Part shown: piece by piece, positions 12,058 to 62,337 of the stretch
How positions within the stretch are numbered: position 1 is the first letter of the stretch
Layout of the letters: each line of letters opens with the position of its first letter
Origin: Escherichia coli
Lineage (GTDB): Bacteria; Pseudomonadota; Gammaproteobacteria; Enterobacterales; Enterobacteriaceae
NCBI GenBank assembly: GCA_029351405.1
Contig: GCA_029351405.1_4841.1
Reading direction: 5' to 3' (one strand)
Length of the DNA: 64,000 nt
Program-made: the position numbers and the translations under genes
Notes under the pieces: model-generated
Told to the model about the DNA's origin: nothing
Databases searched by the model: none
Seen by the model: the letters and a program-made list of their open reading frames with translations, nothing else

Positions 12058-12081
12058 TTGCTCAGGCCGAGGCCAACAGGG

Positions 12082-24784: not shown

Positions 24785-25513
24785 TTACTTCAGCGCGTTC
24801 TTCAGATTATCGGAACCGATGCTGTTGATGACACCTCCGGCGCAGATATCTTTCGCCCACTCTGAGATCACGTTGGCGAAAGAGAAGTTAAGACACTTAC
24901 CAACCATGTCTTGGATATGGGCTAACTCTGCTGCAATACCGTTCGTGATGTCCTGAGCAATAGAGGCTACTGATGCGACAGCAGTGTCGATGGCCTGAGT
25001 AACTTCAGCGGCCAGTGCCTGAATAGCATCAAGACCAGCACTGACACCCTGAGCTACCAACTCAGCCAGCTCATTCATCTTGTTTGTGATAGTTGTGAGA
25101 ACACTTTGCATTGTGTTGATCCACTGTTTGCCGAGGTTCTGAATAACCCCAAATGCATTATTGATCAGATCACAGTTGTTCGGTTCTCGACCTATAGACT
25201 TCAGGGCGGACTTATACGACACAGATGTACCGATGCGGGAATATGCCTCGTTCACTGACTGGTAGCCATAGTTGTTCAAAGTAGTGATGCTGTCGTTGGC
25301 TGAGTTGAACATTGCTGTAGATTCGTTGAGTTTGGCTGTAGTCAACCCACCTGCCGTCAGCGCTTCCTGAATCTGCGTATTTCCGGTGTTAGCCAGTGAC
25401 GCTGTAGTCGCCTTACCACTGGTGATTAACCCCTGTGAGGCGCTGCTGAGGGACGGGAGAGGATTGGTAAAGGCGTTGCCCTGCGATAGGGCGTCATAGA
25501 TCTGTGCGTTCAT
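24785..25513 (-). CDS. late-expressed Ala/Ser/Thr/Asn-rich protein, probably virion-associated
   Basis: 242 aa with composition typical of tail or whisker proteins; CTAAATAcccccc motif upstream. Confidence 0.5.
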   Translation of the reverse strand: MNAQIYDALSQGNAFTNPLPSLSSASQGLITSGKATTASLANTGNTQIQEALTAGGLTTAKLNESTAMFNSANDSITTLNNYGYQSVNEAYSRIGTSVSYKSALKSIGREPNNCDLINNAFGVIQNLGKQWINTMQSVLTTITNKMNELAELVAQGVSAGLDAIQALAAEVTQAIDTAVASVASIAQDITNGIAAELAHIQDMVGKCLNFSFANVISEWAKDICAGGVINSIGSDNLKNALK

Positions 25514-25536
25514 AAGAAAATACCCCCATGGATGAT

Positions 25537-25549
25537 GGGGGGTATTTAG
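25537..25549 (-). promoter_or_regulatory. late-promoter-like motif CTAAATAcccccc
   Basis: Upstream of the 242-aa gene start at 25513. Confidence 0.45.
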
Positions 25550-40911: not shown

Positions 40912-41562
40912 TTATTCTCCAAAGTCGATCTTCATATTGTCTGTTGCAAGCCCCTTCTCAAGATCATCTGCTAAAGCATTGTCGGTCTGTAGAGAAGAAT
41001 CCTTGTACACGTCCGGTTCGTTCTCTTCGTCCAAGATGGACAGACGTTTGTCAATATCGTCGATCTCCGGAACGCCCGTATCGAAGTTTTCGTTGCCGTA
41101 CTGGAACAACGTGCACGGCAGAGAGAACGTATACCATTTGCCAAATTGCATGAAGTCTTCATCGTTGTTCGGGTTGTTGACCTTGAAGATCTTGTTCGCC
41201 AGTGGTAGATAGATCAGGTCACCTTCCTGAGGTTGTTGTTCAATCCCAACACCGTTGCCTATCACCTCGGCAAATCGGCGGCGCGAGATAGAGAACGTCA
41301 CTTCGTCTTGCAATTGGATACCCCCAAACTTCTCCCACATCTGGGTGTTGAAGCCCTGATAATCCTGCATGTACGCTTCGATGTCGAACGCCTGGTCGAA
41401 CCTGTGGTTAGCATCGTTGGTGATAGGAAATTTTTCAACGATGGAACGGGGTATATACTTGATGTCTATCCCGCGCAACTCAATCATTTCCTGTACCAAA
41501 TCTTCAATCAGCTTCTGTGTGCCTTGGTGATTGGTGGCGTTGAAATATTTAGAAGTGGCCAT
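40912..41562 (-). CDS. neck protein (gp14-like, by synteny)
   Basis: 216 aa; late-promoter motif upstream. Confidence 0.4.
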   Translation of the reverse strand: MATSKYFNATNHQGTQKLIEDLVQEMIELRGIDIKYIPRSIVEKFPITNDANHRFDQAFDIEAYMQDYQGFNTQMWEKFGGIQLQDEVTFSISRRRFAEVIGNGVGIEQQPQEGDLIYLPLANKIFKVNNPNNDEDFMQFGKWYTFSLPCTLFQYGNENFDTGVPEIDDIDKRLSILDEENEPDVYKDSSLQTDNALADDLEKGLATDNMKIDFGE

Positions 41563-41583
41563 ATCGATACCCTCAATTTTGAA

Positions 41584-41592
41584 GGTATTTAG
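41584..41592 (-). promoter_or_regulatory. late-promoter-like motif CTAAATACC
   Basis: About 25 nt upstream of the gp14-like start at 41562. Confidence 0.4.
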
Positions 41593-48061: not shown

Positions 48062-48094
48062 TTTGATGCTCCATCGATAGGTGCCATTATAGAG

Positions 48095-48102
48095 ATATTT
48101 AG
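48095..48102 (-). promoter_or_regulatory. late-promoter-like motif CTAAATAT
   Basis: About 35 nt upstream of the 1612-aa gene start at 48061. Confidence 0.45.
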
Positions 48103-48483: not shown

Positions 48484-48499
48484 CCCCGCCGAAGCGGGG
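48484..48499 (-). terminator. hairpin CCCCGC-CGAA-GCGGGG (after the first tailspike gene)
   Basis: Third copy of the same hairpin. Confidence 0.55.
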
Positions 48500-48505
48500 T
48501 TATTA

Positions 48506-50455
48506 TTATCCAATAACAGTCCCATCAGTAAGGCTTGTTGGCGGGGAACCAAATTTACGTACTAACTGATTTGATGAGTTTTTAAACAAATAGAATTTAC
48601 TACCAAACTCCATACATGGAATACCCGTTCCCGTGGTAGTAGCCAGACCCATGTTGGTAGCGATGTATGCTTTGCCATCTAAATTGATGGCGTTATTAAC
48701 GTTGTTTACACCGTGATAGTTACTAATAGAGCTTACCCAATCTGATGCTGTGGTTTTCGGGTTAATAACGTTCATAGCATTCGAAGATGCGGTTAGCGTG
48801 TCTATACGTAAGTTATCAATAGTAAATTTCCCGTAGTTGTCTATGGTGAATGCAGTTGCTGGATTACGTATATCAATGTTACGCCCTACAAACTCACTAA
48901 TGTTCTTTATTCTCGGAGCGGTTTTAACTCCGGTCAAGGTGCAAGTATAGTTCTCGACTTTGACGACCCCAAAGGTATCTCCTCCGTTAGTCGTGTTTAT
49001 ACTGAGAGCATTCTGCACGTTTTCACTTGTTACATTTAAAATTTTAGCATCAATTACGCCAGAGTTCTCAATATTAACGTCAGCGTTAGCACCGTTTATG
49101 TACACACCATCGAGTGTAGCTTTACGAGTAAGTGGAGAGTTGCTCGGATACATGCTAATGATAACCCCCATCGTATTATGACGAACTGATGGGTTATCTT
49201 CATCCTCTACCGTATTCTGGTGATAGATTCTTGTACCTTGCCCTATGTACACGTCATAGCTTCCAGATAGACGCATACCCCACTTGCCTTTCTTACTCCC
49301 GATATTGTTGCAATATGCACCGAGAACAACCCCAGACGATATCTGGAATACAGGGCTGCCGTCAGAATTGTCTTCAGAGGTCATCAATATTGGCTCTCTC
49401 CAGCGGGATACCTGATATGACCCGCCGATTACCTTGAAGTTAGCGGTACTGTAGAAGGCCATGCCGTTACGGTCAGTATCATAAGTGCGACAACGCGTCA
49501 CCTGCACATCAGTACAGAACTTAAACATTATCCCTGGCTGGCCGCCACGAGAACCATAAGCATTAATTACCGAGCAGTCAGTTAATTTAATGCGGGTGGC
49601 CTGGTGAAACCAGAAACCATTAAATGTTGACGTATCTACTGTCGTGTCCCACGTCACATTAGACTTATTACCATCAATAACAAGTCCATTTACGATGATA
49701 TCATAATGCTCAGGATTACCTGCGTCATAAGTATAAGCCTTACGGTTAGTTATCCCGGTGGAAATGCTTGGGTAGTGACCGGGTTTTAATTTTAGCGTAC
49801 ATCCATAAGCATTAATTGTTGTGCCAGGCTTAACAATTAAAGGCGTACCATCCCAGTAAAGTGTACGGGCTGGGAAAGTTACATGTGTTGCTCCAGAGTT
49901 TAGTGCCTCTTGTATAGCTGCCGTGTGGTCAGTTGCCGATTCCATTGATGAAGTAATGAACATGTCAACAGATACATATACACCATAAGTGACACCGACG
50001 CTAACCCACGCCCCTAATTTAATCTCACCTGTGCTATTTGGGGTTGAACCAGGGTAAACAATTTTAGGTAACTCACCATCCCAGCGATATTTACCACCCC
50101 CATGGGTAAGTATTTCATTCTTAGTGTTAATGGTAGCACCTGTAATAAAGGAACCAGTAACAGTTACAAACTCTTCTCGTTCTACAGCCAGTTCACCCAA
50201 ATCAACAGTACCCTCAGAATGAACCAGGACTGCTTGCGCACTAAGGCTAACAGCAGTGGTTCCTACTGGAAGTACAGGTAATGAGTAAGCACGCTGAGTA
50301 GCCTTATCATAGATTACTTTATAACCACCCAAGTCTACACCTACAGAAAAATAGACTACTTCGTTCTGCTTAACACCAAACTTACGGGCAATGGCTTGCT
50401 TATTGGTAAGAATACCAGTAGAGCCTTTACCGCCTTGTGAGAACATTTCGTTCAT
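48506..50455 (-). CDS. tailspike protein (649 aa) with beta-helix-type repeats
   Basis: N-terminus MNEMFSQGGKGSTGILTNKQAIARKFGV; Asn/Gly/Thr/Val-rich coils in the body; hairpin terminator downstream; AT-rich distal part. Confidence 0.7.
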   Translation of the reverse strand: MNEMFSQGGKGSTGILTNKQAIARKFGVKQNEVVYFSVGVDLGGYKVIYDKATQRAYSLPVLPVGTTAVSLSAQAVLVHSEGTVDLGELAVEREEFVTVTGSFITGATINTKNEILTHGGGKYRWDGELPKIVYPGSTPNSTGEIKLGAWVSVGVTYGVYVSVDMFITSSMESATDHTAAIQEALNSGATHVTFPARTLYWDGTPLIVKPGTTINAYGCTLKLKPGHYPSISTGITNRKAYTYDAGNPEHYDIIVNGLVIDGNKSNVTWDTTVDTSTFNGFWFHQATRIKLTDCSVINAYGSRGGQPGIMFKFCTDVQVTRCRTYDTDRNGMAFYSTANFKVIGGSYQVSRWREPILMTSEDNSDGSPVFQISSGVVLGAYCNNIGSKKGKWGMRLSGSYDVYIGQGTRIYHQNTVEDEDNPSVRHNTMGVIISMYPSNSPLTRKATLDGVYINGANADVNIENSGVIDAKILNVTSENVQNALSINTTNGGDTFGVVKVENYTCTLTGVKTAPRIKNISEFVGRNIDIRNPATAFTIDNYGKFTIDNLRIDTLTASSNAMNVINPKTTASDWVSSISNYHGVNNVNNAINLDGKAYIATNMGLATTTGTGIPCMEFGSKFYLFKNSSNQLVRKFGSPPTSLTDGTVIG

Positions 50456-50479
50456 ATAAACCTCTTTGTTTTTCTAAGA

Positions 50480-50501
50480 ACCCACCCACTTACGAGGGTG
50501 G
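50480..50501 (-). terminator. hairpin CCCACCC-ACTTACGA-GGGTGGG between tailspike genes
   Basis: 7-bp GC-rich stem downstream of the 892-aa tailspike gene. Confidence 0.4.
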
Positions 50502-50513
50502 GGGAATGGTTGA

Positions 50514-53177
50514 TTAGCTTAAGGGTTTCAATTCCCAACGTTTGTCATAGTAATGTGCAAACCCGCAGTAGGATACAGACAGATGAACGATTGCATTTGT
50601 TAGGCTTGCTGTAGGCAATGCGATTCTAACAAATGTTTTACCGTCACGTACTAGTTTGGTTACAGTTACCCCGGAAAGGGATTTATCACCAGCAATCATA
50701 TTGGACCAAACTGCACCAGAGGCTACATTTTCCTGTGTGCTACCGGATAGCCCAAACAGAATACTGCCCCCAGTCTCTGTACCAGCCAAACCATTTTTGT
50801 TAACTGGAATGATATCTGCACGTCCTGCAACGAAGCAACCATCCGGAATTTTAGTCTCTTCCCCTACAGCACAAAGGAATATATCTAAAGCCCTGTTCCA
50901 TGGAACCAGTACAGTAGCTTCCTTGTGGTCAACACTTCTGAAGAAGGAATTACTATTAGAATGGATTGCTGACAAAGTAGTACCCGTGTACGAGTTACGA
51001 CCTTGTACAATATCTTCTCCATATACCCTGCCCCGGTAAAGGTTGCCACGGTTATATGTAGATATTGTGTAGGAACCATCGCTAACTTTTAAAAATTCAA
51101 AATTACTATTTAATGTAACACTACGCCCAATATACTGGTTGCTTGGAGAAGTGGTATTCTCCATCAATTTGATAGCATAGTCAGAGTTAACGTAACCACT
51201 GTCAAAAATAATCCTCCCAGCCTGATACTCATTAGCAGGCAACTCAATAAAATGAGTTACACCAGTATTCATTTTAGACTGAATCCAACAAGAAACATCT
51301 CTGAATACGATTGTTGTTTGTGCAGCAGGGGAGGCTAACTGTGAGAAGTCTAACGCCACTGGCCCGTTTATCCCTTCAATACCAAAACCAGAGAAAGAAA
51401 GGCTACGAATATCCCCATAGAATTTATGAGGTAAAATGCAACCATCTGCTGCAATGTTGCTGGTAGCAACATACATAACAGGCATTCCATTATTGGCTGG
51501 CTCGTATGTAGTACGATTAATGGCAGCTCCCCATAAAAAGCCAATGTCACAATGGTGTGCCCAAATAGATGACATATCCGTACTAGTGCTTCCATTGATA
51601 CCAAAACCATAGGTACAGTCATATGCATACAAATTGGTCATAACACTGACAAAGCAAGCCATAGGCAAAGCGAACTTATAGTGGTAAAAGTCCACGTCAT
51701 ACACATTAAATGTTTTACCACCACCACCTATGCCATTACTTAAGTCGAATGAACTAATAACAAGAGGGCTACCTACGTAATCAGAATCAGCATTACGGAA
51801 AGAAAGGCGACCAATAGTAATATTGTGTCCCCATCTGGTAGAGATGAATCCACCCTTACCTGATGTATAAATAATACTTTGTCTCTGACCAAGACCCGTA
51901 ATGGATAGAGATTTACCAGTCCAACGCTCATTACTAATATCAATCTGTGTATCACCAATATACATTGGTTGGGTAATTTTGATATTCAACCCATTAGCTA
52001 CAGCATATGAATATGTTGCTAACAAAGCATCCCCATCATTGTGTACACCAGACAGGTCAGCAGCCCCCATACTTGGTGCTTTAGGATAAGGTGTGCCTTG
52101 AATAGTACTCCCGTCAATATATGGAGCATCCATCCACGCACCAAACATAGATGGGGTAACTTCGGTGCTACCACGTAAATCACGTACCCAACGCTTGCCG
52201 GATGCAGTAACAATAGTCATACCATTGTCATCTGCTGATGTAACAGATGGTTTATATACAAAGTATCCACCACCCAAATCACCTGCATTGGTTGCAATCA
52301 TACCGTCAGTATGGGCTTCTACATAAATACGCTGTTCAGCATAAGTAGGCTCAATTGTTCGCAGTACTGCAATATTGGGGCATGTACCAATCAGCTTACT
52401 ACCATCAGGCTTACTCAGGTCTACCCTAAGACCAGCACCAGAATTAGGAATTTCCATCAAATCTACGGTAATGTTACCCGGGCTGTAGGTTAACTGACCA
52501 TTAGACACAGAACTAATATAGACATTGGTCGGTAATGAAGGCAGGCCATAAATTTTCTGAGAAGCTGCATCGAAGATAACTTTCTTACTATTGAGTACTT
52601 GAGATGTATCCGTACTAAGAATTACCTCAGAATCTTTTACATTAGCTGAACGGGCGATTTCTTGAATACTGCGGTCAAACAACGGACTGATATTCGGTTG
52701 TTTAACAGACATTTCAGCGACTACCCAAACGCCTGCAGTCAGCGCAGTTTGTAAAGACACTTTCCCTGTCGTGCTGTCATAGGAATATTCAATTTCGGGT
52801 GTTTTGTACTCACCACCGATATAAAGAGATTGGACTCCATAAGATGTGTAATCAGGAGTGAACTCGGTTTCACCTCCCACGGCCTGAAACTTGTAGATTC
52901 GAATCCCAGTTTTATAATCTTCTGGAGACAGAATCTTATCAAACAGACAGAACACAACGTCACCTTTGGATAATGCACACCCGAGATTCAACGTATTTCC
53001 ATCGATTTCAAAGTTGTCTAACGGAACTTGCATACCACCGTTGATTGTGACTATACCAGTGATAGGGTAGAAAGGGAGGGAGATAAACTTCTCTCCGCCC
53101 GTTGCGGTATAAGTGTATGGAATCTGGTGCGGGGCTGTTACAACCGCTCCAAAAATGCTCTCGACGTTTCTGGTCAT
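50514..53177 (-). CDS. tailspike protein (about 890 aa)
   Basis: ATG 53177 (alternative 53192) after the 39-nt leader repeat; long parallel-beta-helix-like body; central and C-terminal parts about 30-35% GC. Confidence 0.7.
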   Translation of the reverse strand: MTRNVESIFGAVVTAPHQIPYTYTATGGEKFISLPFYPITGIVTINGGMQVPLDNFEIDGNTLNLGCALSKGDVVFCLFDKILSPEDYKTGIRIYKFQAVGGETEFTPDYTSYGVQSLYIGGEYKTPEIEYSYDSTTGKVSLQTALTAGVWVVAEMSVKQPNISPLFDRSIQEIARSANVKDSEVILSTDTSQVLNSKKVIFDAASQKIYGLPSLPTNVYISSVSNGQLTYSPGNITVDLMEIPNSGAGLRVDLSKPDGSKLIGTCPNIAVLRTIEPTYAEQRIYVEAHTDGMIATNAGDLGGGYFVYKPSVTSADDNGMTIVTASGKRWVRDLRGSTEVTPSMFGAWMDAPYIDGSTIQGTPYPKAPSMGAADLSGVHNDGDALLATYSYAVANGLNIKITQPMYIGDTQIDISNERWTGKSLSITGLGQRQSIIYTSGKGGFISTRWGHNITIGRLSFRNADSDYVGSPLVISSFDLSNGIGGGGKTFNVYDVDFYHYKFALPMACFVSVMTNLYAYDCTYGFGINGSTSTDMSSIWAHHCDIGFLWGAAINRTTYEPANNGMPVMYVATSNIAADGCILPHKFYGDIRSLSFSGFGIEGINGPVALDFSQLASPAAQTTIVFRDVSCWIQSKMNTGVTHFIELPANEYQAGRIIFDSGYVNSDYAIKLMENTTSPSNQYIGRSVTLNSNFEFLKVSDGSYTISTYNRGNLYRGRVYGEDIVQGRNSYTGTTLSAIHSNSNSFFRSVDHKEATVLVPWNRALDIFLCAVGEETKIPDGCFVAGRADIIPVNKNGLAGTETGGSILFGLSGSTQENVASGAVWSNMIAGDKSLSGVTVTKLVRDGKTFVRIALPTASLTNAIVHLSVSYCGFAHYYDKRWELKPLS

Positions 53178-53184
53178 TTGAAGA

Positions 53185-53223
53185 TACCCCATAGAGGATT
53201 TGCCAATATGGGGTATTTAGTGA
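53185..53223 (-). repeat. 39-nt leader repeat, copy A
   Basis: TACCCCATAGAGGATTTGCCAATATGGGGTATTTAGTGA, identical to 55365-55403; contains the late-promoter motif and inverted repeat CCCCATA/TATGGGG. Confidence 0.8.
53211..53220 (-). promoter_or_regulatory. late-promoter-like motif CTAAATACCC within the 39-nt leader repeat
   Basis: Upstream of the tailspike gene starting at 53177. Confidence 0.5.
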
Positions 53224-53256
53224 ATGGATAAGGAGTCGCAGGACTACCCACTTGTT

Positions 53257-55359
53257 TTATCTGATTACGAATTTGCCCAGGCTAATATCGTTAATCAGCG
53301 TAGCCACTATGTTTGCCAGTTGGGGTGTTGTTAACGTATTCACATCGCCGCCGCGTAAAGTACCTGCGTTTGTAAACGGATACGCTTGCGGTCGTTCACT
53401 GTTGAAGAACTGGTTCCCCTGCTCGTACCTGTGAGCTGGTACAGTTGTATAAAGTATTCCGTTCGTTGTAACAGGCACCGAGCAGTTGACAATGTTCACA
53501 TGACCAGCCACACCAACACATTCAATAGGACGCTCAACCGTACCGAATGGCTGAACACCCACAAGGCGGTTTATGTTCAGGCTCTGTGATGCCTGCGCAT
53601 ACAGATAAGAACTAGGCTTACCATTAATACCACGAATGTTCCAGTTATCTACTTCAATATGCCGTGCATTATGAATCTGACATAGTGCTGTTCCGTCTGT
53701 ATCAGGGGATGCACCAACAATACGCACGTTCTTCATAGTGATGTCTGAAGTCGCTGTTGAGTTCGCCCCGCAGTTAATCATAACAGCTTTAGAACCTGGT
53801 TGTGTGCAGTGGATTGTCAACCCATCGAATTCAATATCCCCTAGATTTACCGTGTGAGAGGAGCCATCCTTACGCAAAAAGAACACGGCCCAATCTGTGT
53901 GGCCTGATATTAAGATATTACTAAATCGCAGGCGTGTGCAGACTACCGGATAATATCGGCAGAGGATTGGCTGTGAGCAATTCTTGATTATGATGTTGTC
54001 ATACGTCACATCGCTTGAACCTTCAATGGCAATTCCAGCGTTACAAGCCTCAATATAAACCCCAGTTACGCTTCCGTTTGTAAAGTTTGCACGGATGCCG
54101 TGTGATTCGCAGTTCTTGATTGTTACATTACTGATGTTTACACGTGTAATTGCAGTACCATCACCACCGCCAACACCAGTTACCAAGTCATCAGACTGAA
54201 GACGAAGACCATTACCGCCAGAACCATTAATGCTGATGTCATGAATCATTACGTTAAGTGTGCGAGCTGGGCGAGCTGAATCCACAAATACAGAAGATGC
54301 CCATGTGGTTCTAGTACGGATATGATGGATATGTGCTTCTGTAGCGTTACCTACAATAATTGCCATGCCTTGACGATTGCTGCCGTCCGGCTGTTGGATT
54401 TTCCCACGTCCACAATCGTGTGAATACAGATTGTCAGCCAACGCCCAGCGACCATAATCCATTGTTACGTTACTGTTCCACGCACCTTGTAATTCACACC
54501 CTGAAAGCTCAAGCGTGCCAGCGGATTGCATAGCCAAACCAACACCAGGGTCAAATGACGCATCCTGACGGTAAAAATCAAACAAGAAATTACCGACGAT
54601 GCGTATATCGTAGGCAGTGTAGTCAAACTCCTGGTTTGTATCATTCCAAGTCCGTGGTGACCTTAGCCAAAACTGACGGGAATCAACAGTTACTTTTGGC
54701 AGAAGCGGTTTAAGCTGAATGTCTCCCTGAATCGTGAAGATCCCTTCAACTTTCACGGGAGAATACCCAATGTAAATATTACCAGCCTTTGGTAACAAAC
54801 GGGCAAGCTGTGCGTCATTCTGGGCGATCTTCCAACCCGTGATCACTTCGTTGAAGAATGATACTGGGTACAACTCATACACACCATTAATCGTGGTCTG
54901 ATCAAAACTGGTGACAGTCACGGGTTCCGTCAGAGAAGAACTCATCATCATCAGATTGCCATCAATTCTGACGAACATTACTCCTGACGGGATAATATCC
55001 CCGACGGCCAAGGAAAGATTATTTTCCGTGGGGAAACAAGTTCCGCCATAGTATCCTGGTGTCGCAACCTGGGAAGTTTCATCGTATTTCTTCCAGGCTT
55101 CTCCAGATATCCCACCAGTTGATTGCGGTGTTGAGTTTTTGTCTACAGTCTTGGGCAAAGACCCACCCCAGGTGTAACACTGGGCACCATTGACATGCCA
55201 CACGGCGTCAGTTGCAGACGCCACAGTAGCACCATCTTCAAAACTACCGTCAACCAAATTAAGGCCTAAATCCGACAAAGCCCGCCGCCACAATTCACGC
55301 GGGTTTTTGTTGATTTCTTTGGCTGTTGAACCTTTCGGCTGATTGAATTGCGGATTCAT
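53257..55359 (-). CDS. tailspike protein (about 700 aa)
   Basis: ATG 55359 after the second copy of the 39-nt leader; N-terminus MNPQFNQPKGSTAKEINK; NxTxxN beta-helix-like repeats. Confidence 0.7.
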   Translation of the reverse strand: MNPQFNQPKGSTAKEINKNPRELWRRALSDLGLNLVDGSFEDGATVASATDAVWHVNGAQCYTWGGSLPKTVDKNSTPQSTGGISGEAWKKYDETSQVATPGYYGGTCFPTENNLSLAVGDIIPSGVMFVRIDGNLMMMSSSLTEPVTVTSFDQTTINGVYELYPVSFFNEVITGWKIAQNDAQLARLLPKAGNIYIGYSPVKVEGIFTIQGDIQLKPLLPKVTVDSRQFWLRSPRTWNDTNQEFDYTAYDIRIVGNFLFDFYRQDASFDPGVGLAMQSAGTLELSGCELQGAWNSNVTMDYGRWALADNLYSHDCGRGKIQQPDGSNRQGMAIIVGNATEAHIHHIRTRTTWASSVFVDSARPARTLNVMIHDISINGSGGNGLRLQSDDLVTGVGGGDGTAITRVNISNVTIKNCESHGIRANFTNGSVTGVYIEACNAGIAIEGSSDVTYDNIIIKNCSQPILCRYYPVVCTRLRFSNILISGHTDWAVFFLRKDGSSHTVNLGDIEFDGLTIHCTQPGSKAVMINCGANSTATSDITMKNVRIVGASPDTDGTALCQIHNARHIEVDNWNIRGINGKPSSYLYAQASQSLNINRLVGVQPFGTVERPIECVGVAGHVNIVNCSVPVTTNGILYTTVPAHRYEQGNQFFNSERPQAYPFTNAGTLRGGDVNTLTTPQLANIVATLINDISLGKFVIR

Positions 55360-55364
55360 GATAA

Positions 55365-55403
55365 TACCCCATAGAGGATTTGCCAATATGGGGTATTTAG
55401 TGA
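55365..55403 (-). repeat. 39-nt leader repeat, copy B
   Basis: Identical to 53185-53223; 5 nt upstream of the tailspike start codon. Confidence 0.8.
55391..55400 (-). promoter_or_regulatory. late-promoter-like motif CTAAATACCC within the 39-nt leader repeat
   Basis: Upstream of the tailspike gene starting at 55359. Confidence 0.5.
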
Positions 55404-55437
55404 GATCAAGGAGCCTTATAACACTCTCTTCATAGTG

Positions 55438-58434
55438 TTACAAATTACCACCAGATACCCATGTACCTGGGGTTCCTGCTACAGTACATATCCACTCTTT
55501 GGGACTACCTACAGCTGGTGAACTGTTAATGCATTTTGCACCACGAGGCCAGGTCAATGTGGTTGGTGCTGCGGTATCATATAGAACCGGTAGTGCACTA
55601 CCTTGTTTCACCAAGCTACCAAGCCATGCAGGAACAGTCGCAACGTCCCACCTGTTACCAGACATTTGCAGTGCACCTACACCATCGCCGTACATGCGAA
55701 TTGCCTCACTGGTTGTATTAAAGCTGCGGCAGTCTCTAATGGTTAAGCTCTGGTTATTCCACGAGATATTACGTGCGAAGCCCTGGAAAGTGACGTTGGT
55801 AATAGCGCAAGCAGCAGTAACCGTAATTGCATAATCACTGGTGCCAGTACCTGCATGAACAGCATCGATACCCTCGTACTTAGCAACACCTATCGAGCCG
55901 CCGGACGCGTCAGTTATCGTCGAAGAGTATGTTGCGCAGTTTCTGAAAATAGTGTTATTCGCAGAGTTACCGAACGCATGAGTAACGTTGTTAATACTCA
56001 CATTTTCAACAATAATATTATCGCCATTACTGCACTGAATAGCTCGTGAGTCATAAATATCCCCATATTTTGTCAGGCTCCCGCCATTAAAGTGGCATCT
56101 TTGACCCTGAAGAGCGACCATAGGACTACCGCTGAAAGATTGATTCCATCGGTGTACATGGCAGTTTGTCAACTCGATGCCAAGCAAATTACCAGAATCG
56201 TTGTATACATAGATATCTATCTTCTGATTATCACCAGCAATGTGGTCAATAATGTGAATGTATCTTGTCGGAGCATCATCACCGCTCTGAGAGTAAACGC
56301 GAATACCATATTCGCTGTTGCCGAATGTCTGGTTTCCTTTGAAGATTGTGCCGGTGCTCTTCCAGATAATGCAACCACGGCCTGTTGCGTTTATCTCTGT
56401 ATCACTCAGGTATCCGTTGGAATTGCTGATTGAATTGATAACTTCATTGAATGTTCCGTAACGGTCTTCAAGCCCCATACCCCAGTTATTTTCAGATATG
56501 CAATCCTGAATCTTGCAACGAGTGCAATTGATCATCTGAATGCCTGAGCCAGGCACCTTTCTGACGGTCATTCCTATAACAGAGCTATGGGAGGTATCAG
56601 CAACTAACACAGCAGACACTACACTGCTTGCTCCAGCCCTGATACCTGTTCCAACGATATTACCACCACGCGCCTGTGTATTCGAACCACGGATAGCGAA
56701 AATATAGTTCGACAATGTAGTACCCTGAATCAGCCTTGCCGCGCCAAAGTCAATACGGCGGGCTTCATGCGCCGTGATTGTTGCGTCCAGCAGGTAATCA
56801 CCATCAGGGAAACTAATTCGTTTAGCTGCTGCGAATGCAGCGTTAATGGCAGAGGAACATGGCGTAACGCCGTCCGGTACTGCACCTGCCATTAACGGAT
56901 TTACAGTGTCAGCATTAATACGAATCCATGCCGCTCCCCCAGGAGTCTTGAATACAGTAACGCCGTTGTCGGTGTAAGAGCTACCGTCGAGCACTGCTCG
57001 TAACTGCCCGCCACCGTATCGTGTGCCGGAACTGTACTCGCGCAGTGTTATGCGCTGTTTATCAAATGACGGCTCTATGTTCCTCAGCGCGGTTACGGTC
57101 AATGCCTCCCCGAGTAATTTATCTCCGTCTTGCGCGGCTAAATCAGAGCGTAGTACATCAGTGTATTCATTTGATACAGGCAACAAACTAACAACAACAC
57201 CTCCAGGCGCATATGTCAGGGTGCTTCCGCTCACAGATACGATGGACGCGCCTGTTGGGATACCAGAAGGCAGACCCCAGATCTTCTGTGCAACGACATC
57301 ATAGATAACCGTCTTTCCGTCCAGTTTGGTGATGGTATCGGACGACAAAATAACCTGAGAATTCGGCACGTTCACGGAACGCGCCACTTCGTTTGGTGTA
57401 CGGTCGATCTGATTGTACAGTGTTGGGTCGCCATTGATGACGACAACAACTTCATCACCAGCTTCGAGTTCGTCGGCCAGCGTGATGATCTTCGTAACGG
57501 AGTCATAAGTGAAGCCCAGGCCTTTCTGCTGGCGGGATCCATCGATAAAGATCTCAGAAACATCTTCGGCATCCACGTCCAACTCGATCTCAGTTTCACC
57601 GCCCGCAGCTGATCCGCTATTGTATATCCAAGTGATAACCGTACCGCCGCCGGAACCACCGGAGCCATCGCCCAACTGGATCGGGACATATTGGATGACC
57701 TGCAGCTCGGAACCTGATGGGATTGATGGACTGAAGTCGACATTGTAACCATTGAGGGAATACTTTGACTCCAGCAGGCGCTTCCCGTCAACATACACAT
57801 CAACAATGGACGGCTGTGTGGTGAGAGTTACCTGAGCTGTGTCTGATGCAACTGTCTCAGTGAAGATGGTACGACTGTAAACGCGCCCCTGGCCAAGACC
57901 GACACCAGCAGTCACAATCCAACCACGCGCGTCTCCAGACCAGGTAAAGGTCGCAGATACACTATCTGTGGAGAGAGTCATAGGCTCTACAGAGCCGTAC
58001 ATTGGGCGTCCGTTTGGATCGATGGTCAGAGGATACAGTGAGAACTTTCCATACAAGTCACAGACTGTAACAGAATCGCCAATGCGCGTAGGGGAAGGGA
58101 ACACCACCGTAGAGACGCCTGTGGAGTTGTCTACCAGATAGCCTCGCCCTTCAGTGAGCGTTGCCGTAGAGGCATGCGGAAGGGCTTCCCAGCGGATACC
58201 ACCGCCACCCAGTGGCAACCAACCACCATTTTCGTAATAACCTTCGAATTCGTCGGAGTCGGCATTGTAGCGAACGGAAGACGGGAGCCCTGCGCTGGCA
58301 TTACCCTCGGGTAAAGTCAGGACAGCATCTGGTCCATGCTCAATCGTACCCGTGTTGAGGATACCAGCCAAAGTAGACTGCTCTTCAGCCGCCAGACCGA
58401 GAGGGAAAACAGGCTGTGTTGGTTTATTAGCCAT
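55438..58434 (-). CDS. tailspike protein (about 1000 aa) with conserved N-terminal anchor region
   Basis: ATG 58434 (MANKPTQPVFPLGLAAEE...); Gly-rich linker GDGSGGSGGG; long beta-helix-like C-terminal part; late-promoter motif upstream. Confidence 0.75.
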   Translation of the reverse strand: MANKPTQPVFPLGLAAEEQSTLAGILNTGTIEHGPDAVLTLPEGNASAGLPSSVRYNADSDEFEGYYENGGWLPLGGGGIRWEALPHASTATLTEGRGYLVDNSTGVSTVVFPSPTRIGDSVTVCDLYGKFSLYPLTIDPNGRPMYGSVEPMTLSTDSVSATFTWSGDARGWIVTAGVGLGQGRVYSRTIFTETVASDTAQVTLTTQPSIVDVYVDGKRLLESKYSLNGYNVDFSPSIPSGSELQVIQYVPIQLGDGSGGSGGGTVITWIYNSGSAAGGETEIELDVDAEDVSEIFIDGSRQQKGLGFTYDSVTKIITLADELEAGDEVVVVINGDPTLYNQIDRTPNEVARSVNVPNSQVILSSDTITKLDGKTVIYDVVAQKIWGLPSGIPTGASIVSVSGSTLTYAPGGVVVSLLPVSNEYTDVLRSDLAAQDGDKLLGEALTVTALRNIEPSFDKQRITLREYSSGTRYGGGQLRAVLDGSSYTDNGVTVFKTPGGAAWIRINADTVNPLMAGAVPDGVTPCSSAINAAFAAAKRISFPDGDYLLDATITAHEARRIDFGAARLIQGTTLSNYIFAIRGSNTQARGGNIVGTGIRAGASSVVSAVLVADTSHSSVIGMTVRKVPGSGIQMINCTRCKIQDCISENNWGMGLEDRYGTFNEVINSISNSNGYLSDTEINATGRGCIIWKSTGTIFKGNQTFGNSEYGIRVYSQSGDDAPTRYIHIIDHIAGDNQKIDIYVYNDSGNLLGIELTNCHVHRWNQSFSGSPMVALQGQRCHFNGGSLTKYGDIYDSRAIQCSNGDNIIVENVSINNVTHAFGNSANNTIFRNCATYSSTITDASGGSIGVAKYEGIDAVHAGTGTSDYAITVTAACAITNVTFQGFARNISWNNQSLTIRDCRSFNTTSEAIRMYGDGVGALQMSGNRWDVATVPAWLGSLVKQGSALPVLYDTAAPTTLTWPRGAKCINSSPAVGSPKEWICTVAGTPGTWVSGGNL

Positions 58435-58467
58435 TTCAAATACCCCTAAATGTGTTCGTTTCATCTA

Positions 58468-58478
58468 GGGGTATTTAG
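58468..58478 (-). promoter_or_regulatory. late-promoter-like motif CTAAATACCCC
   Basis: Upstream of the tailspike gene starting at 58434. Confidence 0.5.
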
Positions 58479-58480
58479 TT

Positions 58481-59671: not shown

Positions 59672-59673
59672 TT

Positions 59674-60528
59674 TTAACTCCTTGAACTTTCTAGGAATAC
59701 AGTAAACCCAGCAGGATGGAAGTGCTGACGGAAGACGCGATCAAACACACCTTCAAAATCAGATACGTTGCCAGGAACTCTTATCACATACGTGAATTCA
59801 TCATAGTAGTAATCGTCACGCATTCCTGTCGCGCCGTCACATTCAAAGTTGTCGTCCAGGCCACCAATTTCTTCCTTGGGATAATACACACTCACTGGGC
59901 AACCAAAGTAAATCCAGAAGAACAATTCAATCGCTTTCTTCGTCCCGCGAATGCGATAAATGTGTTTAAGTAACTTCAACCAGCGTACATGGTCCAGTGT
60001 CCGGCGTTCAGTTCCCTCGACATACACAGAGAGAGTGTCTCCGTCTGAAGTCACCAAACTGTCCGAACCAACTGGCACAAACTTCCCGAACTCCAGGAAG
60101 GACTTATCAACCGTTCTCTGGAATCCAAAATCAGCATACCAATCGTCGATGCGTTCGTTCTTGTCTTCCATTGAGATTAATGGCCGACCGTCCACGTCCA
60201 GCAAATCTTCGAAGTCTAGCGCCATCATGTTCTCAAACGTGCGCGTCAGGAACTTGTCTTCCAAGAAGTCTTTGGCCTCAGTACCTGGCGTCTTGCGCTT
60301 CTTGATGTCAATCAACTGCTCAATAGGAGACTGATCCGTATTTGGGTTCACCCAACCACCAGTGTCTGCCAGATACGCCAAGATCTCCTCTTCGGTGAAT
60401 CCCTGCTGGCGATACAACCAGTTGAAGAACGTATCCATAAACTCGATGAATACTGGGAATTCATTCTGGTAAAACAATGGGGTTTCATATTTCACCCCAT
60501 TGTGTCCGTTATTAAGATCTTTGGACAT
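59674..60528 (-). CDS. baseplate-associated protein (tentative)
   Basis: 284 aa; GGAGGTG RBS; translationally coupled between the gp6-like gene and the fibre gene. Confidence 0.45.
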   Translation of the reverse strand: MSKDLNNGHNGVKYETPLFYQNEFPVFIEFMDTFFNWLYRQQGFTEEEILAYLADTGGWVNPNTDQSPIEQLIDIKKRKTPGTEAKDFLEDKFLTRTFENMMALDFEDLLDVDGRPLISMEDKNERIDDWYADFGFQRTVDKSFLEFGKFVPVGSDSLVTSDGDTLSVYVEGTERRTLDHVRWLKLLKHIYRIRGTKKAIELFFWIYFGCPVSVYYPKEEIGGLDDNFECDGATGMRDDYYYDEFTYVIRVPGNVSDFEGVFDRVFRQHFHPAGFTVFLESSRS

Positions 60529-62290
60529 AACGCACCTCCGGCTCCACAGTTACAGCACCGATGCGGAGCACCTGATTCTGTGTGGCCTGAATGTTCTGGT
60601 CAAGACCGTCTGGAGACACAATTATTGTCACACCCTCAGTGTTGTAGTTGGATACTATGATACGCTGGAGTTCAACAACGCCAGTCACATAATCAACCGT
60701 TCCAACAGCTTGTACCAGATATTCCTTGGTCGTGTCTGTTGTACTCACCTTGTACATATTCAGGACACCACTGACGTCGCGTATGTAGTAAGTGAATTCG
60801 ACCTCGGCCGGAAGCGGCTTAAACCCACTGATACGCACAGAACCAGACGCAATTGAGCGCCCATAATCGAATGTGAAGCTGTCCAGCACCCCATAGTCTG
60901 GCTTGAAATGGCGCTTATACTTCACAGAAGTGATGTTTGACACTATCGATCTGTCCATGTCGGTGATGGCCGACTGTAACTGCTCTTTATCGAACAGTTC
61001 GTCGAATCCTTCTAGATTCCCCAAACCCCAGTTGACAACACCGTTCTTCACGACTGTCTTCAACTGCTCTTCGGTATAGGACGTGGAAGTCGGATCCCAG
61101 AACACGCGGGTGGTGACATCAACATAAGTCAGTTCAGCGTCGACAATCTTGGGTGTGATCGTGCCCACATTGTACTTGTCCAACTTCGACACGATATCTG
61201 CCTTCTCAGCGTCCGAGAGCGCCTCACCAACAGAAGGTATCACAGCAATGTAAACGTATCCGGAGTCGGGCGGAGAGAGCGTGTCGCCGCCATATGCTTT
61301 GGCGCGGGAGACGTTGGAGAACAGACGCTCGGTCAACACAGCATAATCGACTTCGGCTACCGCCGCACCCTCAGTCTGATAAGCCAGCGGAGCAAGGCGC
61401 TTGATGTCCTCAATGCTCTCTGGGTCCTTACCACCGGAAGAACGTTCTGACACCAGCTCAACATCTACAAGGTTGAATCCCCCGATGGAAGACGCGGAGG
61501 ACAAGGCGGTAATATCATTGCCGTCTGCACCAGCTGTCTCCAGATACTGGAGATACACGACGTTCCCGTCTTCTACTCGCTTACAGATATACCCATCACC
61601 GAATTCGAACGTGTACATCCCGTCCAACCCCAGCTCAACGAAGTAAAGTTGCGCATACTGGCTCAAATCGAACGGGCTGACGTATCGTGAGAAGGTAGAC
61701 CGCACGTCAGATGTCTCAGATTCCTGTACCTGTACCACCATATGGTCGATGTCCACGGAAGAAGATGGTATCACATAGGTAGAGATCGCGCTGCCTTCCA
61801 CATCATAGGACTTGTACAGCCAGTTACCCTGTATGAGTTTGATGTTCTCGAACTTGTAAGAGCCGTCTACAAGAGAGGCACTCACAGGTTGGTCAACCGT
61901 GAAGTTATAGGATTTGCCATCCTTCACCCCAATGAACATCGCGCGGCGATCCATTACAATCGTGTCTGGAGCCGTGCTGGCGTCATATGGAGTGACTGTG
62001 ACGTTTGCGTACAGGTACGCTGCCTGGTAGTTGTGAGGGGTGTAAGATAAGAACCCCGCCGCCAGACCGACATTAGAACGCTGTTGAGCAGAGTGAAGAT
62101 GGCTTTCGCCATTCAGCATATTCTGCATGAACCCGATAGAGTTGGCATCCGAGGCCAAGATACGCACGATTGCACTGAGACCAGAACCTTCAAAGTCATA
62201 ATCCTTGAAAGTTGGATCAGCTTTCATGCGCTTCTTGATAAGATACTCGAAAGCCCTGACATCGAGTGAAGGGACTGTTTGCGTGGCCAT
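60512..62290 (-). CDS. baseplate wedge protein (gp6/J-like, tentative)
   Basis: ORF trimmed to ATG 62290 with GGAG RBS; about 590 aa; late-promoter motif upstream; first gene of the minus-strand structural block. Confidence 0.5.
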   Translation of the reverse strand: MATQTVPSLDVRAFEYLIKKRMKADPTFKDYDFEGSGLSAIVRILASDANSIGFMQNMLNGESHLHSAQQRSNVGLAAGFLSYTPHNYQAAYLYANVTVTPYDASTAPDTIVMDRRAMFIGVKDGKSYNFTVDQPVSASLVDGSYKFENIKLIQGNWLYKSYDVEGSAISTYVIPSSSVDIDHMVVQVQESETSDVRSTFSRYVSPFDLSQYAQLYFVELGLDGMYTFEFGDGYICKRVEDGNVVYLQYLETAGADGNDITALSSASSIGGFNLVDVELVSERSSGGKDPESIEDIKRLAPLAYQTEGAAVAEVDYAVLTERLFSNVSRAKAYGGDTLSPPDSGYVYIAVIPSVGEALSDAEKADIVSKLDKYNVGTITPKIVDAELTYVDVTTRVFWDPTSTSYTEEQLKTVVKNGVVNWGLGNLEGFDELFDKEQLQSAITDMDRSIVSNITSVKYKRHFKPDYGVLDSFTFDYGRSIASGSVRISGFKPLPAEVEFTYYIRDVSGVLNMYKVSTTDTTKEYLVQAVGTVDYVTGVVELQRIIVSNYNTEGVTIIVSPDGLDQNIQATQNQVLRIGAVTVEPEVRYVQRS

Positions 62291-62329
62291 GATAATCTCC
62301 ATCACCTGAGTTTGAATATGGTGTTGAAG

Positions 62330-62337
62330 ATATTTAG
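62330..62337 (-). promoter_or_regulatory. late-promoter-like motif CTAAATAT
   Basis: About 45 nt upstream of the gp6-like start at 62290. Confidence 0.45.

What the first reader, a model, noticed from the sequence alone, without database searches (positions are those of the whole stretch)
53185..55403. Identical 39-nt promoter/leader cassette duplicated upstream of two tailspike genes
TACCCCATAGAGGATTTGCCAATATGGGGTATTTAGTGA occurs identically at 53185-53223 and 55365-55403 (plus-strand notation), each 5-7 nt upstream of a tailspike start codon. On the minus strand it reads CTAAATACCCCATATTGGCAAATCCTCTATGGGGTA, a late-promoter-like motif with an inverted repeat (CCCCATA / TATGGGG) whose downstream arm doubles as the Shine-Dalgarno-like GGGG. 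Perfect 39-nt identity between otherwise different genes suggests a portable expression cassette and a likely recombination site for swapping tailspike modules.
Basis: seen in the sequence. Interest (0 to 1): 0.5.

Follow-up and report, generated by a model that had tools for sequence, protein, structure and literature searches.

The report
Late-promoter/RBS hairpin cassette before tailspike genes
The repeated 39-base element is a conserved control cassette of ViI-like (Ackermannviridae) phages: a T4-style late promoter built into a hairpin that hides the ribosome-binding site, and it also marks the exact joints where tailspike gene modules have been swapped between phages.

Summary
An exact 39-nt repeat lies at 53185-53223 and 55365-55403. 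On the coding (minus) strand the copies end 7 and 5 nt before the ATGs of TSP2 and TSP3. The window comes from an Ackermannviridae phage, 97.7% identical to Enterobacter phage fGh-Ecl02.

The element reads CTAAATA-CCCC-ATA / 13-nt loop / TAT-GGGG-TAT. CTAAATA is the family's gp55-type late-promoter motif. All 12 copies in the window are on the coding strand, and 11 lie just upstream of gene starts.

The promoter and its CCCC tail form the 5' arm of a stable RNA hairpin (-17 kcal/mol). The 3' arm is the Shine-Dalgarno sequence. This matches the geometry of the T4 lysozyme (e) leader. Read-through transcripts would have the ribosome-binding site hidden. Transcripts started at the embedded promoter would lack the 5' arm and be translatable.

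A third variant precedes TSP4. The architecture is conserved across at least five genera and is statistically specific.

Homology with other phages starts or stops exactly at the cassette edges, so it is also a mosaic joint. The perfect identity reflects a TSP2-type cassette recombined onto the TSP3 leader.

All functions are inferred; no transcript mapping data were found. This is a new member of a known kind, of moderate interest.

The parts
55365..55403 (-). Cassette copy upstream of TSP3. CTAAATA is at 55400-55394 and CCCC at 55393-55390. The 5' arm is 55397-55387, the inner GG/CC mini-stem is 55384-55383 / 55377-55376, and the 3' arm is 55373-55363. The SD GGGG is at 55370-55367. The predicted +1 is about 55388.
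   Evidence: Exact repeat. RNA fold -17.5 kcal/mol, z -3.9. Geometry.
53185..53223 (-). Cassette copy upstream of TSP2. CTAAATA is at 53220-53214 and CCCC at 53213-53210. The 5' arm is 53216-53207 and the 3' arm is 53193-53184. The SD GGGG is at 53190-53187. The predicted +1 is about 53208.
   Evidence: Exact repeat. RNA fold -17.1 kcal/mol, z -4.0. Homology to relatives ends at 53221.
58434..58478 (-). Third, diverged cassette upstream of TSP4: CTAAATACCCCTAGATG...CATTTAGGGGTATTTGAAATG. The 16-bp stem pairs 58477-58462 with 58452-58437. The true start codon is the ATG at 58434.
   Evidence: Fold -21.0 kcal/mol, z -6.7. Conserved in every tailspike cluster examined, (14 viral contigs, YX22, May, IME250, Ea2809, CRW-SP2).
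53257..55359 (-). TSP3 tailspike gene (700 aa), flanked by the two identical cassettes as direct repeats.
   Evidence: Its C-terminal part is 80% identical in DNA to the C-terminal part of G7C gp66.
50514..53177 (-). TSP2 tailspike gene (887 aa).
55438..58434 (-). TSP4 tailspike gene (998 aa from the ATG at 58434).
48506..50455 (-). TSP1 tailspike gene (649 aa). It has no CTAAATA cassette. It is preceded by the hairpin CCCACCC..GGGTGGG and an ordinary AAGAGG SD.
62287..62337 (-). gp6 baseplate-wedge late promoter (CTAAATA at 62337-62331). A weaker hairpin of the same design pairs AUCUUCA.CACC with GGUG.UGGAGAU.
   Evidence: -11.6 kcal/mol. Conserved, with one compensatory U-A to A-U change in Ea2809.
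41558..41592 (-). Neck-gene (gp14 homologue) late promoter with a promoter::SD hairpin, ATACCUUC/GAGGGUAU. Its 5' arm is almost the same as that of T4 gene e.
   Evidence: (-11.4 kcal/mol, z -4.0).
25510..25549 (-). Another CTAAATACCCC hairpin site: AAATACCCCCCAT..ATGGGGGTATTT, then an ATG.

Best explanation
Each 39-nt copy is the core of a conserved Ackermannviridae tailspike-junction cassette with three overlapping functions.

(1) CTAAATA is the -12 to -6 element of a gp55/gp33/gp45-type (T4-like) late promoter. Transcription would start about 6 nt after its last A, just past the CCCC.

(2) The promoter's ATA plus CCCC-ATA is the 5' arm of an RNA hairpin. The 3' arm, TAT-GGGG-TAT, is the Shine-Dalgarno region of the tailspike gene. 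In mRNAs that read through from upstream promoters the hairpin forms and hides the ribosome-binding site. mRNAs initiated at the embedded promoter lack the 5' arm and are translated. This is the mechanism established for T4 genes e, soc, 49 and I-TevI. Its effect would be to make each tailspike gene an autonomous unit whose output depends on its own late promoter.

(3) The cassette is the first conserved sequence downstream of each variable receptor-binding module. It therefore serves as a short homology patch at which modules have been exchanged. The perfect 39-nt identity here arose because a TSP2-type cassette, carried with the 3' end of a foreign upstream gene, was joined within the right arm to the TSP3 leader.

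Shown here: sequence, geometry, conservation, statistics and mosaic joints. Inferred: promoter activity, the TSS position, translational gating and the recombination mechanism.
For: Promoter.
- CTAAATA occurs 12 times in the window, all on the coding strand, and 11 copies lie 20-50 nt upstream of an ORF start.
- In fGh-Ecl02, 14 of 17 sites are within 70 nt upstream of predicted starts. Most of these precede virion genes, including gp6, TSP4/3/2, vriC, neck, sheath, scaffold and gp48, and one precedes uvsW.
- The relatives encode gp55, gp33 and gp45.
- T4's TATAAATA occupies -13 to -6, and the Aeh1 late consensus is CTAAATA starting at -12.
- CTAAATAcCcc is listed as a family regulatory motif.

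Hairpin.
- Fold energies are -17.5 (TSP3), -17.1 (TSP2) and -21.0 (TSP4) kcal/mol, with z of -3.9 to -6.7.
- The SD unpaired probability is below 0.25 at 50% (fGh-Ecl02) and 46% (CBA120) of promoter sites, against 5% and 8% of control genes (Mann-Whitney p = 1.5e-4 and 3e-3).
- Matched promoter-half/SD-half duplex energy is -154.6 against -98.2 +/- 10.3 for permuted pairs in fGh-Ecl02, and -129.0 against -79.7 +/- 10.7 in CBA120 (p < 5e-5).
- Removing the predicted untranscribed 5' part raises SD accessibility from 0.0-0.2 to 0.5-0.66.
- Every TACCCC...GGGGTA inverted repeat in these genomes lies at a CTAAATA site: 5 loci per genome against 0.2-0.5 expected.
- Stem extensions differ between non-homologous sites but stay complementary: ATA/TAT, TA(G)/(C)TA, CAT/ATG, ATAC/GTGT, and CCC/GGG at the CBA120 resolvase gene.
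- The architecture is kept before tailspike genes in Taipeivirus, Nezavisimistyvirus, Limestonevirus, Agtrevirus and Kuttervirus. Loops of about 8-21 nt vary in sequence while both arms are conserved.
- The T4 gene e leader folded here has the same design: TAAATACCTTC as 5' arm and GGAGGTATT as 3' arm, at -14.9 kcal/mol and z -3.75. The mechanism is described.

Mosaic joint.
- Homology blocks with relatives end at 53221 and at 55400/55401, the 5' edge of CTAAATA.
- RC-2014 shares the left flank and the cassette and then has TSP2. Gloob has a different left flank, then the cassette and the same TSP3.
- In five further phages the best match to the 121-nt junction query is confined to the 40-nt cassette (97.5-100% identical).
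Against: No transcription start, transcript-end or translation data for any Ackermannviridae phage were found. The TSS position, on which the gating model depends, is extrapolated from T4 and Aeh1.

The tailspike genes lie in an all-late gene block. The classical T4 rationale, blocking early translation of a late gene, therefore does not obviously apply. Only read-through from upstream late promoters is evident, so the selective benefit is unclear.

Within each orthologous family the stems are almost invariant. There is only one compensatory pair and a few G.U/G-C switches. The 5' arm is constrained by the promoter and the 3' arm by the SD, so part of the conservation would exist without any RNA structure.

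Pyrimidine-rich tails after the promoter will pair with purine-rich SDs to some extent by composition alone. The weak sites (vriC, uvsW) are not better than shuffles.

Mosaic boundaries at the cassette could reflect selection for intact expression signals rather than crossing-over within it.
Confidence: 0.6

Rival explanations
1. The hairpin is mainly a transcription terminator or attenuator, or a 3'-end stabiliser, for the upstream tailspike gene. It is overlapped with the next gene's promoter for compactness, and SD pairing is a by-product.
For: - The hairpin sits 30-45 nt after the upstream stop codon.
- No canonical terminator is found between TSP4, TSP3 and TSP2.
- The 3' arm is followed by U/A-rich sequence such as UAUUAUC, UAUCUUC or UAUUUUCUU.
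- The same genomes do embed CTAAATA in the loops of canonical terminators (fGh-Ecl02 93572 and 98850, and the CBA120 orthologues).
- Junctions that follow a canonical terminator in Taipeivirus have CTAAATA but no hairpin.
Against: - The terminator scan does not flag these hairpins. The loop is 13-17 nt, and no run of at least 5 T in 8 follows the stem.
- Hairpins of the same design at gp6 and at the neck gene have no U tract at all. The gp6 hairpin lies just downstream of a canonical terminator.
- At every strongly hairpinned site the 3' arm covers the SD region, its GGGG lying about 5-9 nt before the ATG; a terminator does not require this.
- Some relatives, such as L013, carry a canonical terminator upstream of the cassette as well.
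Confidence: 0.2
2. The inverted repeat is a DNA-level site. It could be an operator for a dimeric regulator of late or tailspike genes, or a cruciform or hairpin promoter element like the N4 virion-RNAP promoters.
For: The element is an 11-bp perfect inverted repeat overlapping a promoter. It is conserved across genera, and both arms are invariant. In T4, I-TevI binds an operator overlapping its own late promoter.
Against: - The spacing between the arms varies from about 5 to 21 nt among sites and genera, and in the strongly hairpinned sites the arms remain complementary. That is natural for an RNA stem-loop but not for a fixed-geometry DNA-binding dimer.
- The arm sequences differ between sites outside the ATACCCC/GGGGTAT core.
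- The protein labelled 'putative RNA polymerase' in relatives (window 12498-14516) has no Pfam domain, and its PHROG family has unknown function.
- The family has the gp55/gp33/gp45 set.
Confidence: 0.08
3. The repeat is a recent local duplication or gene-conversion remnant with no function of its own beyond carrying an ordinary promoter and SD. The hairpin is incidental.
For: The two copies are identical. In most relatives the TSP3 and TSP2 cassettes differ in their loops, so the perfect identity itself is recent. Covariation within families is scarce.
Against: Independent, non-homologous promoter sites show the same promoter::SD complementarity with different stem extensions, for example the DUF3990 gene, the resolvase gene, neck, gp6 and the 25549 site. 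The permutation test gives p < 5e-5. Arms are conserved and loops are free across at least five genera. The T4 e leader has the same geometry.
Confidence: 0.1

Closest known systems
T4 gene e (lysozyme) leader and its relatives (soc, 49, 25/26, I-TevI/II/III, segB, Aeh1 mobE): a late promoter embedded in the 5' strand of an RBS-sequestering hairpin
   Same: An A/T-rich gp55-type promoter is followed by a C/T-rich tail that pairs with the SD, and the promoter's ATA pairs with the UAU after the SD. The T4 e leader is TATAAATACCTTC...GGAGGTATTATG at -14.9 kcal/mol. The element here is CTAAATACCCCATA...TATGGGGTATTATCATG at -17.5 kcal/mol. The window's neck-gene site, CTAAATACCTTC...GAGGGTAT, is nearly the same 5' arm as in T4. 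The mechanism is described.
   Different: The promoter's first base is C rather than A/T. The SD is GGGG(U) rather than GGAGG. The loops are longer (13-17 nt) and have an inner GG/CC mini-stem. The element is used serially at three consecutive tailspike genes inside an all-late block, not at a late gene embedded in early or middle transcripts. Nothing has been tested experimentally in this family.
Ackermannviridae ('Viunalikevirus') regulatory motif CTAAATAcCcc
   Same: Exact match. The EspM4VN paper lists it as one of two unique regulatory motifs of these phages, and one of its listed positions (70604-70614) lies within the EspM4VN record's match to this cassette (70601-70640).
   Different: The accessible literature gives only the 11-mer. 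It mentions no hairpin, SD pairing, tailspike-junction location or function. The CBA120 paper states that the late-promoter sequence of the family was not identified. The original Viunalikevirus paper could not be read.
Aeromonas phage Aeh1 late promoter consensus CTAAATA
   Same: The same heptamer, placed from -12 relative to the putative start, upstream of late-gene orthologues, in a phage with a divergent gp55.
   Different: Aeh1 belongs to a different phage family (the T4-like Straboviridae). No CCCC tail or SD pairing is reported as part of its consensus.
Conserved 5' ends (N-terminal XD/anchor domains) of Ackermannviridae tsp genes as recombination substrates
   Same: The literature proposes, and engineering shows, that tsp genes are exchanged by homologous recombination using conserved 5' gene segments. 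Here the conserved block starts at the cassette and runs into the N-terminal coding region.
   Different: The published idea concerns coding sequence. Here the upstream limit of homology is the non-coding cassette. For TSP3 the whole conserved block is only 95 nt, of which about 40% is cassette. In five phages the best match to the junction query is confined to the 40-nt cassette.
Intrinsic terminators overlapping promoters
   Same: Intergenic hairpins sit between convergently packed late genes. In the same genomes CTAAATA also lies in the loops of canonical terminators.
   Different: The cassette hairpins lack a short loop and a U tract, and they always include the SD.

Membership tests
T4-type (gp55/gp33/gp45-dependent) late promoter | Short A/T-rich -10-type element related to TATAAATA at -13 to -6, with no -35 element | tested here: met
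   CTAAATA matches 7 of the 8 positions of TATAAATA when aligned at -12 to -6. It is identical to the Aeh1 late consensus. It has 12 exact copies in the window, all on the coding strand.
T4-type (gp55/gp33/gp45-dependent) late promoter | The phage encodes the late sigma gp55, the co-activator gp33 and the sliding clamp gp45 | tested here: met
   These are annotated in the 97.7%-identical fGh-Ecl02 (gp55 at 88570-89361, gp33 at 114077-114322, gp45 at 67951-68619) and in CBA120. The gp55 and gp33 loci of fGh-Ecl02 map outside the stretch that corresponds to the window. I did not re-derive these annotations.
T4-type (gp55/gp33/gp45-dependent) late promoter | Located immediately upstream of late (virion or late-function) genes | tested here: met
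   Sites precede gp6 wedge, TSP4/3/2, vriC, neck, sheath, scaffold, gp48 and uvsW.
T4-type (gp55/gp33/gp45-dependent) late promoter | Replication-coupled transcription starting about 6 nt downstream of the element | not testable with these tools
   No TSS or RNA-seq data for the family were found.
T4 e/soc/49/I-TevI-type translational gating hairpin | A stable RNA helix sequesters the SD and/or the AUG | tested here: met
   The SD unpaired probability is 0.01 (TSP3), 0.21 (TSP2) and 0.00 (TSP4) in the full leader. Fold z-scores are -3.9 to -6.7. The effect is significant against control genes.
T4 e/soc/49/I-TevI-type translational gating hairpin | The late promoter lies in the DNA encoding the 5' strand, so late transcripts lack that strand | tested here: met
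   CTAAATA-CCCC is the 5' arm. With +1 at the sixth nt after TAAATA, only AUA of the arm is transcribed, and SD accessibility rises to 0.5-0.66. The geometry is met, but the TSS itself is inferred.
T4 e/soc/49/I-TevI-type translational gating hairpin | Longer transcripts from upstream promoters exist and are poorly translated | not testable with these tools
   No canonical terminator lies between the gp6 promoter and the cassettes, so read-through is plausible. It has not been shown.
Intrinsic (Rho-independent) terminator | G+C-rich stem, a loop of 3-8 nt, and then at least 5 U in 8 nt | tested here: not met
   The consensus scan of 47500-62500 does not report the cassettes. Their loops are 13-17 nt and their tails are UAUUAUCA or UAUCUUCA.
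Ackermannviridae CTAAATAcCcc motif | Exact 11-mer in an intergenic position | tested here: met
   There are five exact copies in the window, all on the minus strand, against 0.58 expected.
N4-type hairpin promoter | A 5-7 bp stem with a 3-nt loop, recognised by a phage-encoded single-subunit RNAP | tested here: not met
   The stems are 10-16 bp and the loops 9-17 nt. The only candidate, a protein labelled 'RNA polymerase' in relatives, has no supporting domain.

The most novel reading that the evidence does not exclude
The cassette is not merely a passive homology patch. It may be a structure-specific recombination hotspot. In this reading the inverted repeat extrudes as a hairpin or cruciform in replicating or single-stranded phage DNA. 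It is then cut or resolved by the phage's own junction-resolving or homing nucleases. That would give Ackermannviridae a dedicated, integron-attC-like system for precise plug-and-play exchange of whole tailspike modules, each arriving with its own promoter and gated RBS.
Probability: 0.07. Interest if true: 0.8.

Novelty: new member of a known kind. Interest (0 to 1): 0.4.

Why it matters
First, it gives a concrete, testable definition of late promoters in Ackermannviridae. The CBA120 genome paper said this sequence was unknown for the family. It also explains the conserved 'cCcc' tail of the family motif as an anti-SD partner rather than a promoter determinant.

Second, it extends the T4 gene e style of translational gating to another family. 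There it is used serially to make each tailspike gene an insulated expression unit.

Third, it pinpoints the natural joints of tailspike module exchange to a 40-nt non-coding cassette. That is directly useful for engineering host range in these biocontrol and therapy phages, because swap boundaries can be placed at the cassette. It also helps gene-start annotation, since in-frame ATGs inside the hairpins mislead ORF callers.

Tried and rejected
- **Literature.** No paper held describes a hairpin at CTAAATAcCcc or any TSS mapping for the family. The Viunalikevirus paper is not held. One search failed on a term shorter than three characters.
- **Sigma-70 promoter.** The scan reports TTGGCA-17-TATCAT at 55386-55358. 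I rejected it because its -10 overlaps the TSP3 ATG and it is absent at TSP2.
- **Terminator.** The scan does not flag the cassettes.
- **Rfam.** Nothing matched at the cassettes, and all matches elsewhere were far below gathering scores.
- **Chimeric cassette in IMG/VR.** An exact search for TTGGCAAATCCTCTATGGGGTATTATCATGA found nothing. It is present in the GenBank phages fGh-Ecl02 and Gloob.
- **Covariation within families.** RNAalifold gave little: one compensatory pair. The structural argument therefore rests on the cross-site permutation test and on the pattern of conserved arms and free loops.
- **Phage-encoded RNAP.** The idea is not supported.
Full report
**Observation**

The 39-mer TACCCCATAGAGGATTTGCCAATATGGGGTATTTAGTGA occurs exactly twice, at 53185-53223 and 55365-55403. 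No other copy appears at up to 3 mismatches, and none is expected by chance.

All genes in this region are on the minus strand. There the element reads TCACTAAATACCCCATATTGGCAAATCCTCTATGGGGTA. It ends 7 nt before the ATG at 53177 and 5 nt before the ATG at 55359.

The window belongs to an Ackermannviridae (ViI-like) phage. Its closest relative is Enterobacter phage fGh-Ecl02, at 97.7% identity over 98% of the queried 9 kb (window 50000-59000).

On the minus strand the gene order is:
- gp6 wedge
- a second wedge protein
- a 396-aa tail protein
- TSP4 (55438-58434)
- TSP3 (53257-55359)
- TSP2 (50514-53177)
- TSP1 (48506-50455)
- vriC

The tailspike identity of the proteins is supported by Pfam, PHROGs and PDB matches.

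**Promoter**

CTAAATACCCC occurs five times in the window, always on the minus strand, against 0.58 expected. The shorter CTAAATA occurs 12 times, all on the coding strand, and 11 copies lie 20-50 nt upstream of an ORF start. A third, diverged cassette precedes TSP4.

vriC, gp6, the neck gene, sheath, scaffold and uvsW have CTAAATA with other tails.

The relatives encode the T4 late-transcription set gp55, gp33 and gp45.

Published work places T4's TATAAATA at -13 to -6. It reports CTAAATA, starting at -12, as the late-promoter consensus of the T4-like phage Aeh1.

CTAAATAcCcc is listed as a 'unique regulatory motif' of ViI-like phages. The CBA120 genome paper says the late-promoter sequence of the family was unidentified.

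I conclude that CTAAATA is the late promoter, with +1 about six nt after its last A. This is an inference. No transcript mapping for the family was found.

**Hairpin**

In the strongly structured sites, the bases from the promoter's ATA through the CCCC and a few further bases are complementary to a downstream segment that ends 5-9 nt before the ATG. That segment contains the only SD-like sequence, GGGG(U).

Predicted RNA stabilities:

| Site | Energy (kcal/mol) | z-score |
|---|---|---|
| TSP3 | -17.5 | -3.9 |
| TSP2 | -17.1 | -4.0 |
| TSP4 | -21.0 | -6.7 |
| neck gene | -11.4 | -4.0 |
| gp6 | -11.6 | -1.9 |

Stem extensions beyond the CCCC/GGGG core differ between non-homologous sites but stay complementary. 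Examples are ATA/TAT, TAG/CTA, CAT/ATG and ATAC/GTGT. At the CBA120 RuvC-like resolvase gene CCC pairs with GGG.

Genome-wide results in fGh-Ecl02 and CBA120:
- The SD is sequestered (unpaired probability below 0.25) at 50% and 46% of CTAAATA sites, against 5% and 8% of other genes (p = 1.5e-4 and 3e-3).
- Matched promoter-half/SD-half duplex energies greatly exceed permuted pairings (p < 5e-5 in both genomes).

Every TACCCC...GGGGTA inverted repeat in these genomes is at a CTAAATA site. Modelling the late transcript from the predicted +1 frees the SD, raising accessibility from 0.0-0.2 to 0.5-0.66.

**Conservation**

I used the 396-aa gene as an anchor and found 14 Ackermannviridae contigs. 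I added YX22, May, IME250, Ea2809 and CRW-SP2. All show the same cassettes in front of TSP4-, TSP3- and TSP2-type genes across at least five genera. Both arms are invariant or nearly so, and the loops vary in sequence and length (about 8-21 nt).

Formal consensus folding finds the structure but little covariation within families. There is one compensatory U-A to A-U change at the gp6 site and several G.U/G-C switches. The variable arm spacing argues for an RNA stem-loop rather than a fixed DNA operator.

**Comparison with T4**

The T4 reviews describe the mechanism. For e, soc, 49, 25/26, I-TevI-III, segB and mobE, a late promoter encodes the 5' strand of an RBS-sequestering hairpin. Read-through transcripts are therefore not translated, and late-promoter transcripts are.

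I folded the T4 e leader itself: TATAAATACCTTCTATAAATACTTAGGAGGTATTATG, at -14.9 kcal/mol and z -3.75. Its design is the same as here: TAAATACCYYC as the 5' arm and GGRGGTATT as the 3' arm. The window's neck-gene site (CTAAATACCTTC...GAGGGTAT) is almost the T4 sequence.

This also explains the 'cCcc' part of the family motif as an anti-SD partner.

**Terminator rival**

The cassettes follow the upstream stop codons, and no canonical terminators separate TSP4, TSP3 and TSP2. The genomes also place CTAAATA in the loops of true terminators elsewhere.

Against this, the cassette hairpins fail terminator criteria. Equivalent hairpins at gp6 and the neck gene have no U tract. In the strongly hairpinned sites the 3' arm covers the SD region. 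I keep this rival at about 0.2.

**Why the copies are identical, and recombination**

In most relatives the TSP3 and TSP2 cassettes share about 30 nt, including an upstream flank, but differ in the loop: TTGGTCATCCTT for TSP3 and TTGGCAAATCCTT for TSP2. In the window the TSP3 cassette has the TSP2-type sequence through the right arm, followed by the TSP3-type leader TTATCATGA. It is a chimera.

BLAST breakpoints show that homology with relatives ends at 53221 and at 55400/55401, the 5' edge of CTAAATA. For TSP3 the whole conserved block is only 95 nt.

Three comparisons place the joints:
- Dickeya phage RC-2014 shares the 3' end of the upstream gene, the UTR and the cassette, and then continues into TSP2.
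- Shigella phage Gloob has an unrelated left flank, then the cassette, then the same TSP3 (93% over 298 nt).
- In MK-13, EspM4VN, pSal-SNUABM-02, ChubbyThor and P46FS4 the best match to the junction query is confined to the 40-nt cassette (97.5-100% identical), and several of these records contain two matching places.

The cassette is therefore a natural mosaic joint, consistent with crossing-over inside it. Selection for intact signals could contribute to the same pattern.

One contig (L011) lacks TSP3 and goes from TSP4 straight to a TSP2 cassette. That is the product expected from recombination between the direct repeats.

**Verdict**

The element is a member of a known regulatory kind (the T4-type late promoter/RBS hairpin). 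It carries a family motif that is already listed in the literature. As far as the accessible papers show, that motif's structure, serial use at tailspike junctions and role as a mosaic joint have not been described.

All functional statements are inferences from sequence, comparison and analogy.

- Novelty: new member of a known kind.
- Interest: 0.4.

Noticed in passing
window 50456-50513 (minus strand); L007 2682-2728: The TSP2-to-TSP1 junction leader (TTCTTAGAAAAACAAAGAGGTTTATATG) and the TSP1 N-terminus are shared with the gp66-to-gp63.1 junction of the N4-like podovirus G7C. The preceding terminator-like hairpins occupy the same place but have different stems (CCCACCC..GGGTGGG here, CCCCGC..GCGGGG in G7C). 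G7C gp66's C-terminal part is also 80% identical in DNA to window TSP3 (53255-55254). Tailspike modules and their leaders therefore cross phage families.
   Followed up: partly
L003 43572 and 48850 (fGh-Ecl02 93572, 98850), and the CBA120 orthologues: CTAAATA lies inside the loop of canonical intrinsic terminators: GGGCAC-TAAATACCAC-GTGCCC-TTTATCTTTT and ATCCCCC-TAAATAC-AGGGGGAT-TTCTTTTT. This is a second class of promoter-in-hairpin arrangement, in which the SD is separate and free.
   Followed up: partly
window 48062-48505; L008 9180-9490: A small module holds two terminators and a 51-aa plus-strand ORF (48273-48428). Here it sits between TSP1 and vriC. In phage YX22 a homologous segment lies between the TSP3-type and TSP2 genes, directly upstream of the cassette, so it looks mobile.
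   Followed up: no
window 58464 and 53192: In-frame ATGs inside the hairpins (in the stem/loop of the TSP4 cassette and in the 3' arm of the TSP2 cassette) make mechanical ORF calling over-extend both genes. The conserved N-termini (MANKPTQ, MTRNVE) and the fGh-Ecl02 annotation place the starts at 58434 and 53177.
   Followed up: yes
window 12498-14516 (minus strand): A conserved 672-aa protein is annotated in relatives as similar to a 'putative DNA-directed RNA polymerase'. It has no Pfam domain, and its PHROG family has unknown function, so the label is unsupported.
   Followed up: partly
L029, about 44214-44257 (CBA120 orf087, RuvC-like resolvase): The resolvase gene has a strong promoter::SD hairpin, CTAAATACCCATAAC...GTTATGGGTATTTTTATG. 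This parallels T4 gene 49 (endonuclease VII), one of the classical hairpin-gated late genes.
   Followed up: no
L011 (IMGVR_UViG_2974516482_000001) 6589-14368: This Kuttervirus-like contig has only TSP4, TSP2 and TSP1. TSP4 is followed directly by a TSP2-type cassette, as expected if TSP3 was deleted by recombination between the flanking cassettes.
   Followed up: no
window 55439-55420 (minus strand): A small hairpin, AACACT-atgaagag-AGTGTT, overlaps the TSP4 stop codon just upstream of the TSP3 cassette. It is conserved in Dickeya phage RC-2014 (AACACTCTGAAGAGAGTGTT). Its function is unknown.
   Followed up: no
window 55386-55358 (minus strand): There is a sigma-70-like match, TTGGCA-17-TATCAT (10 of 12), formed by the hairpin loop and the sequence around the TSP3 ATG. 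It is probably a chance match, because the start site would fall inside the ORF and the match is absent at TSP2.
   Followed up: yes
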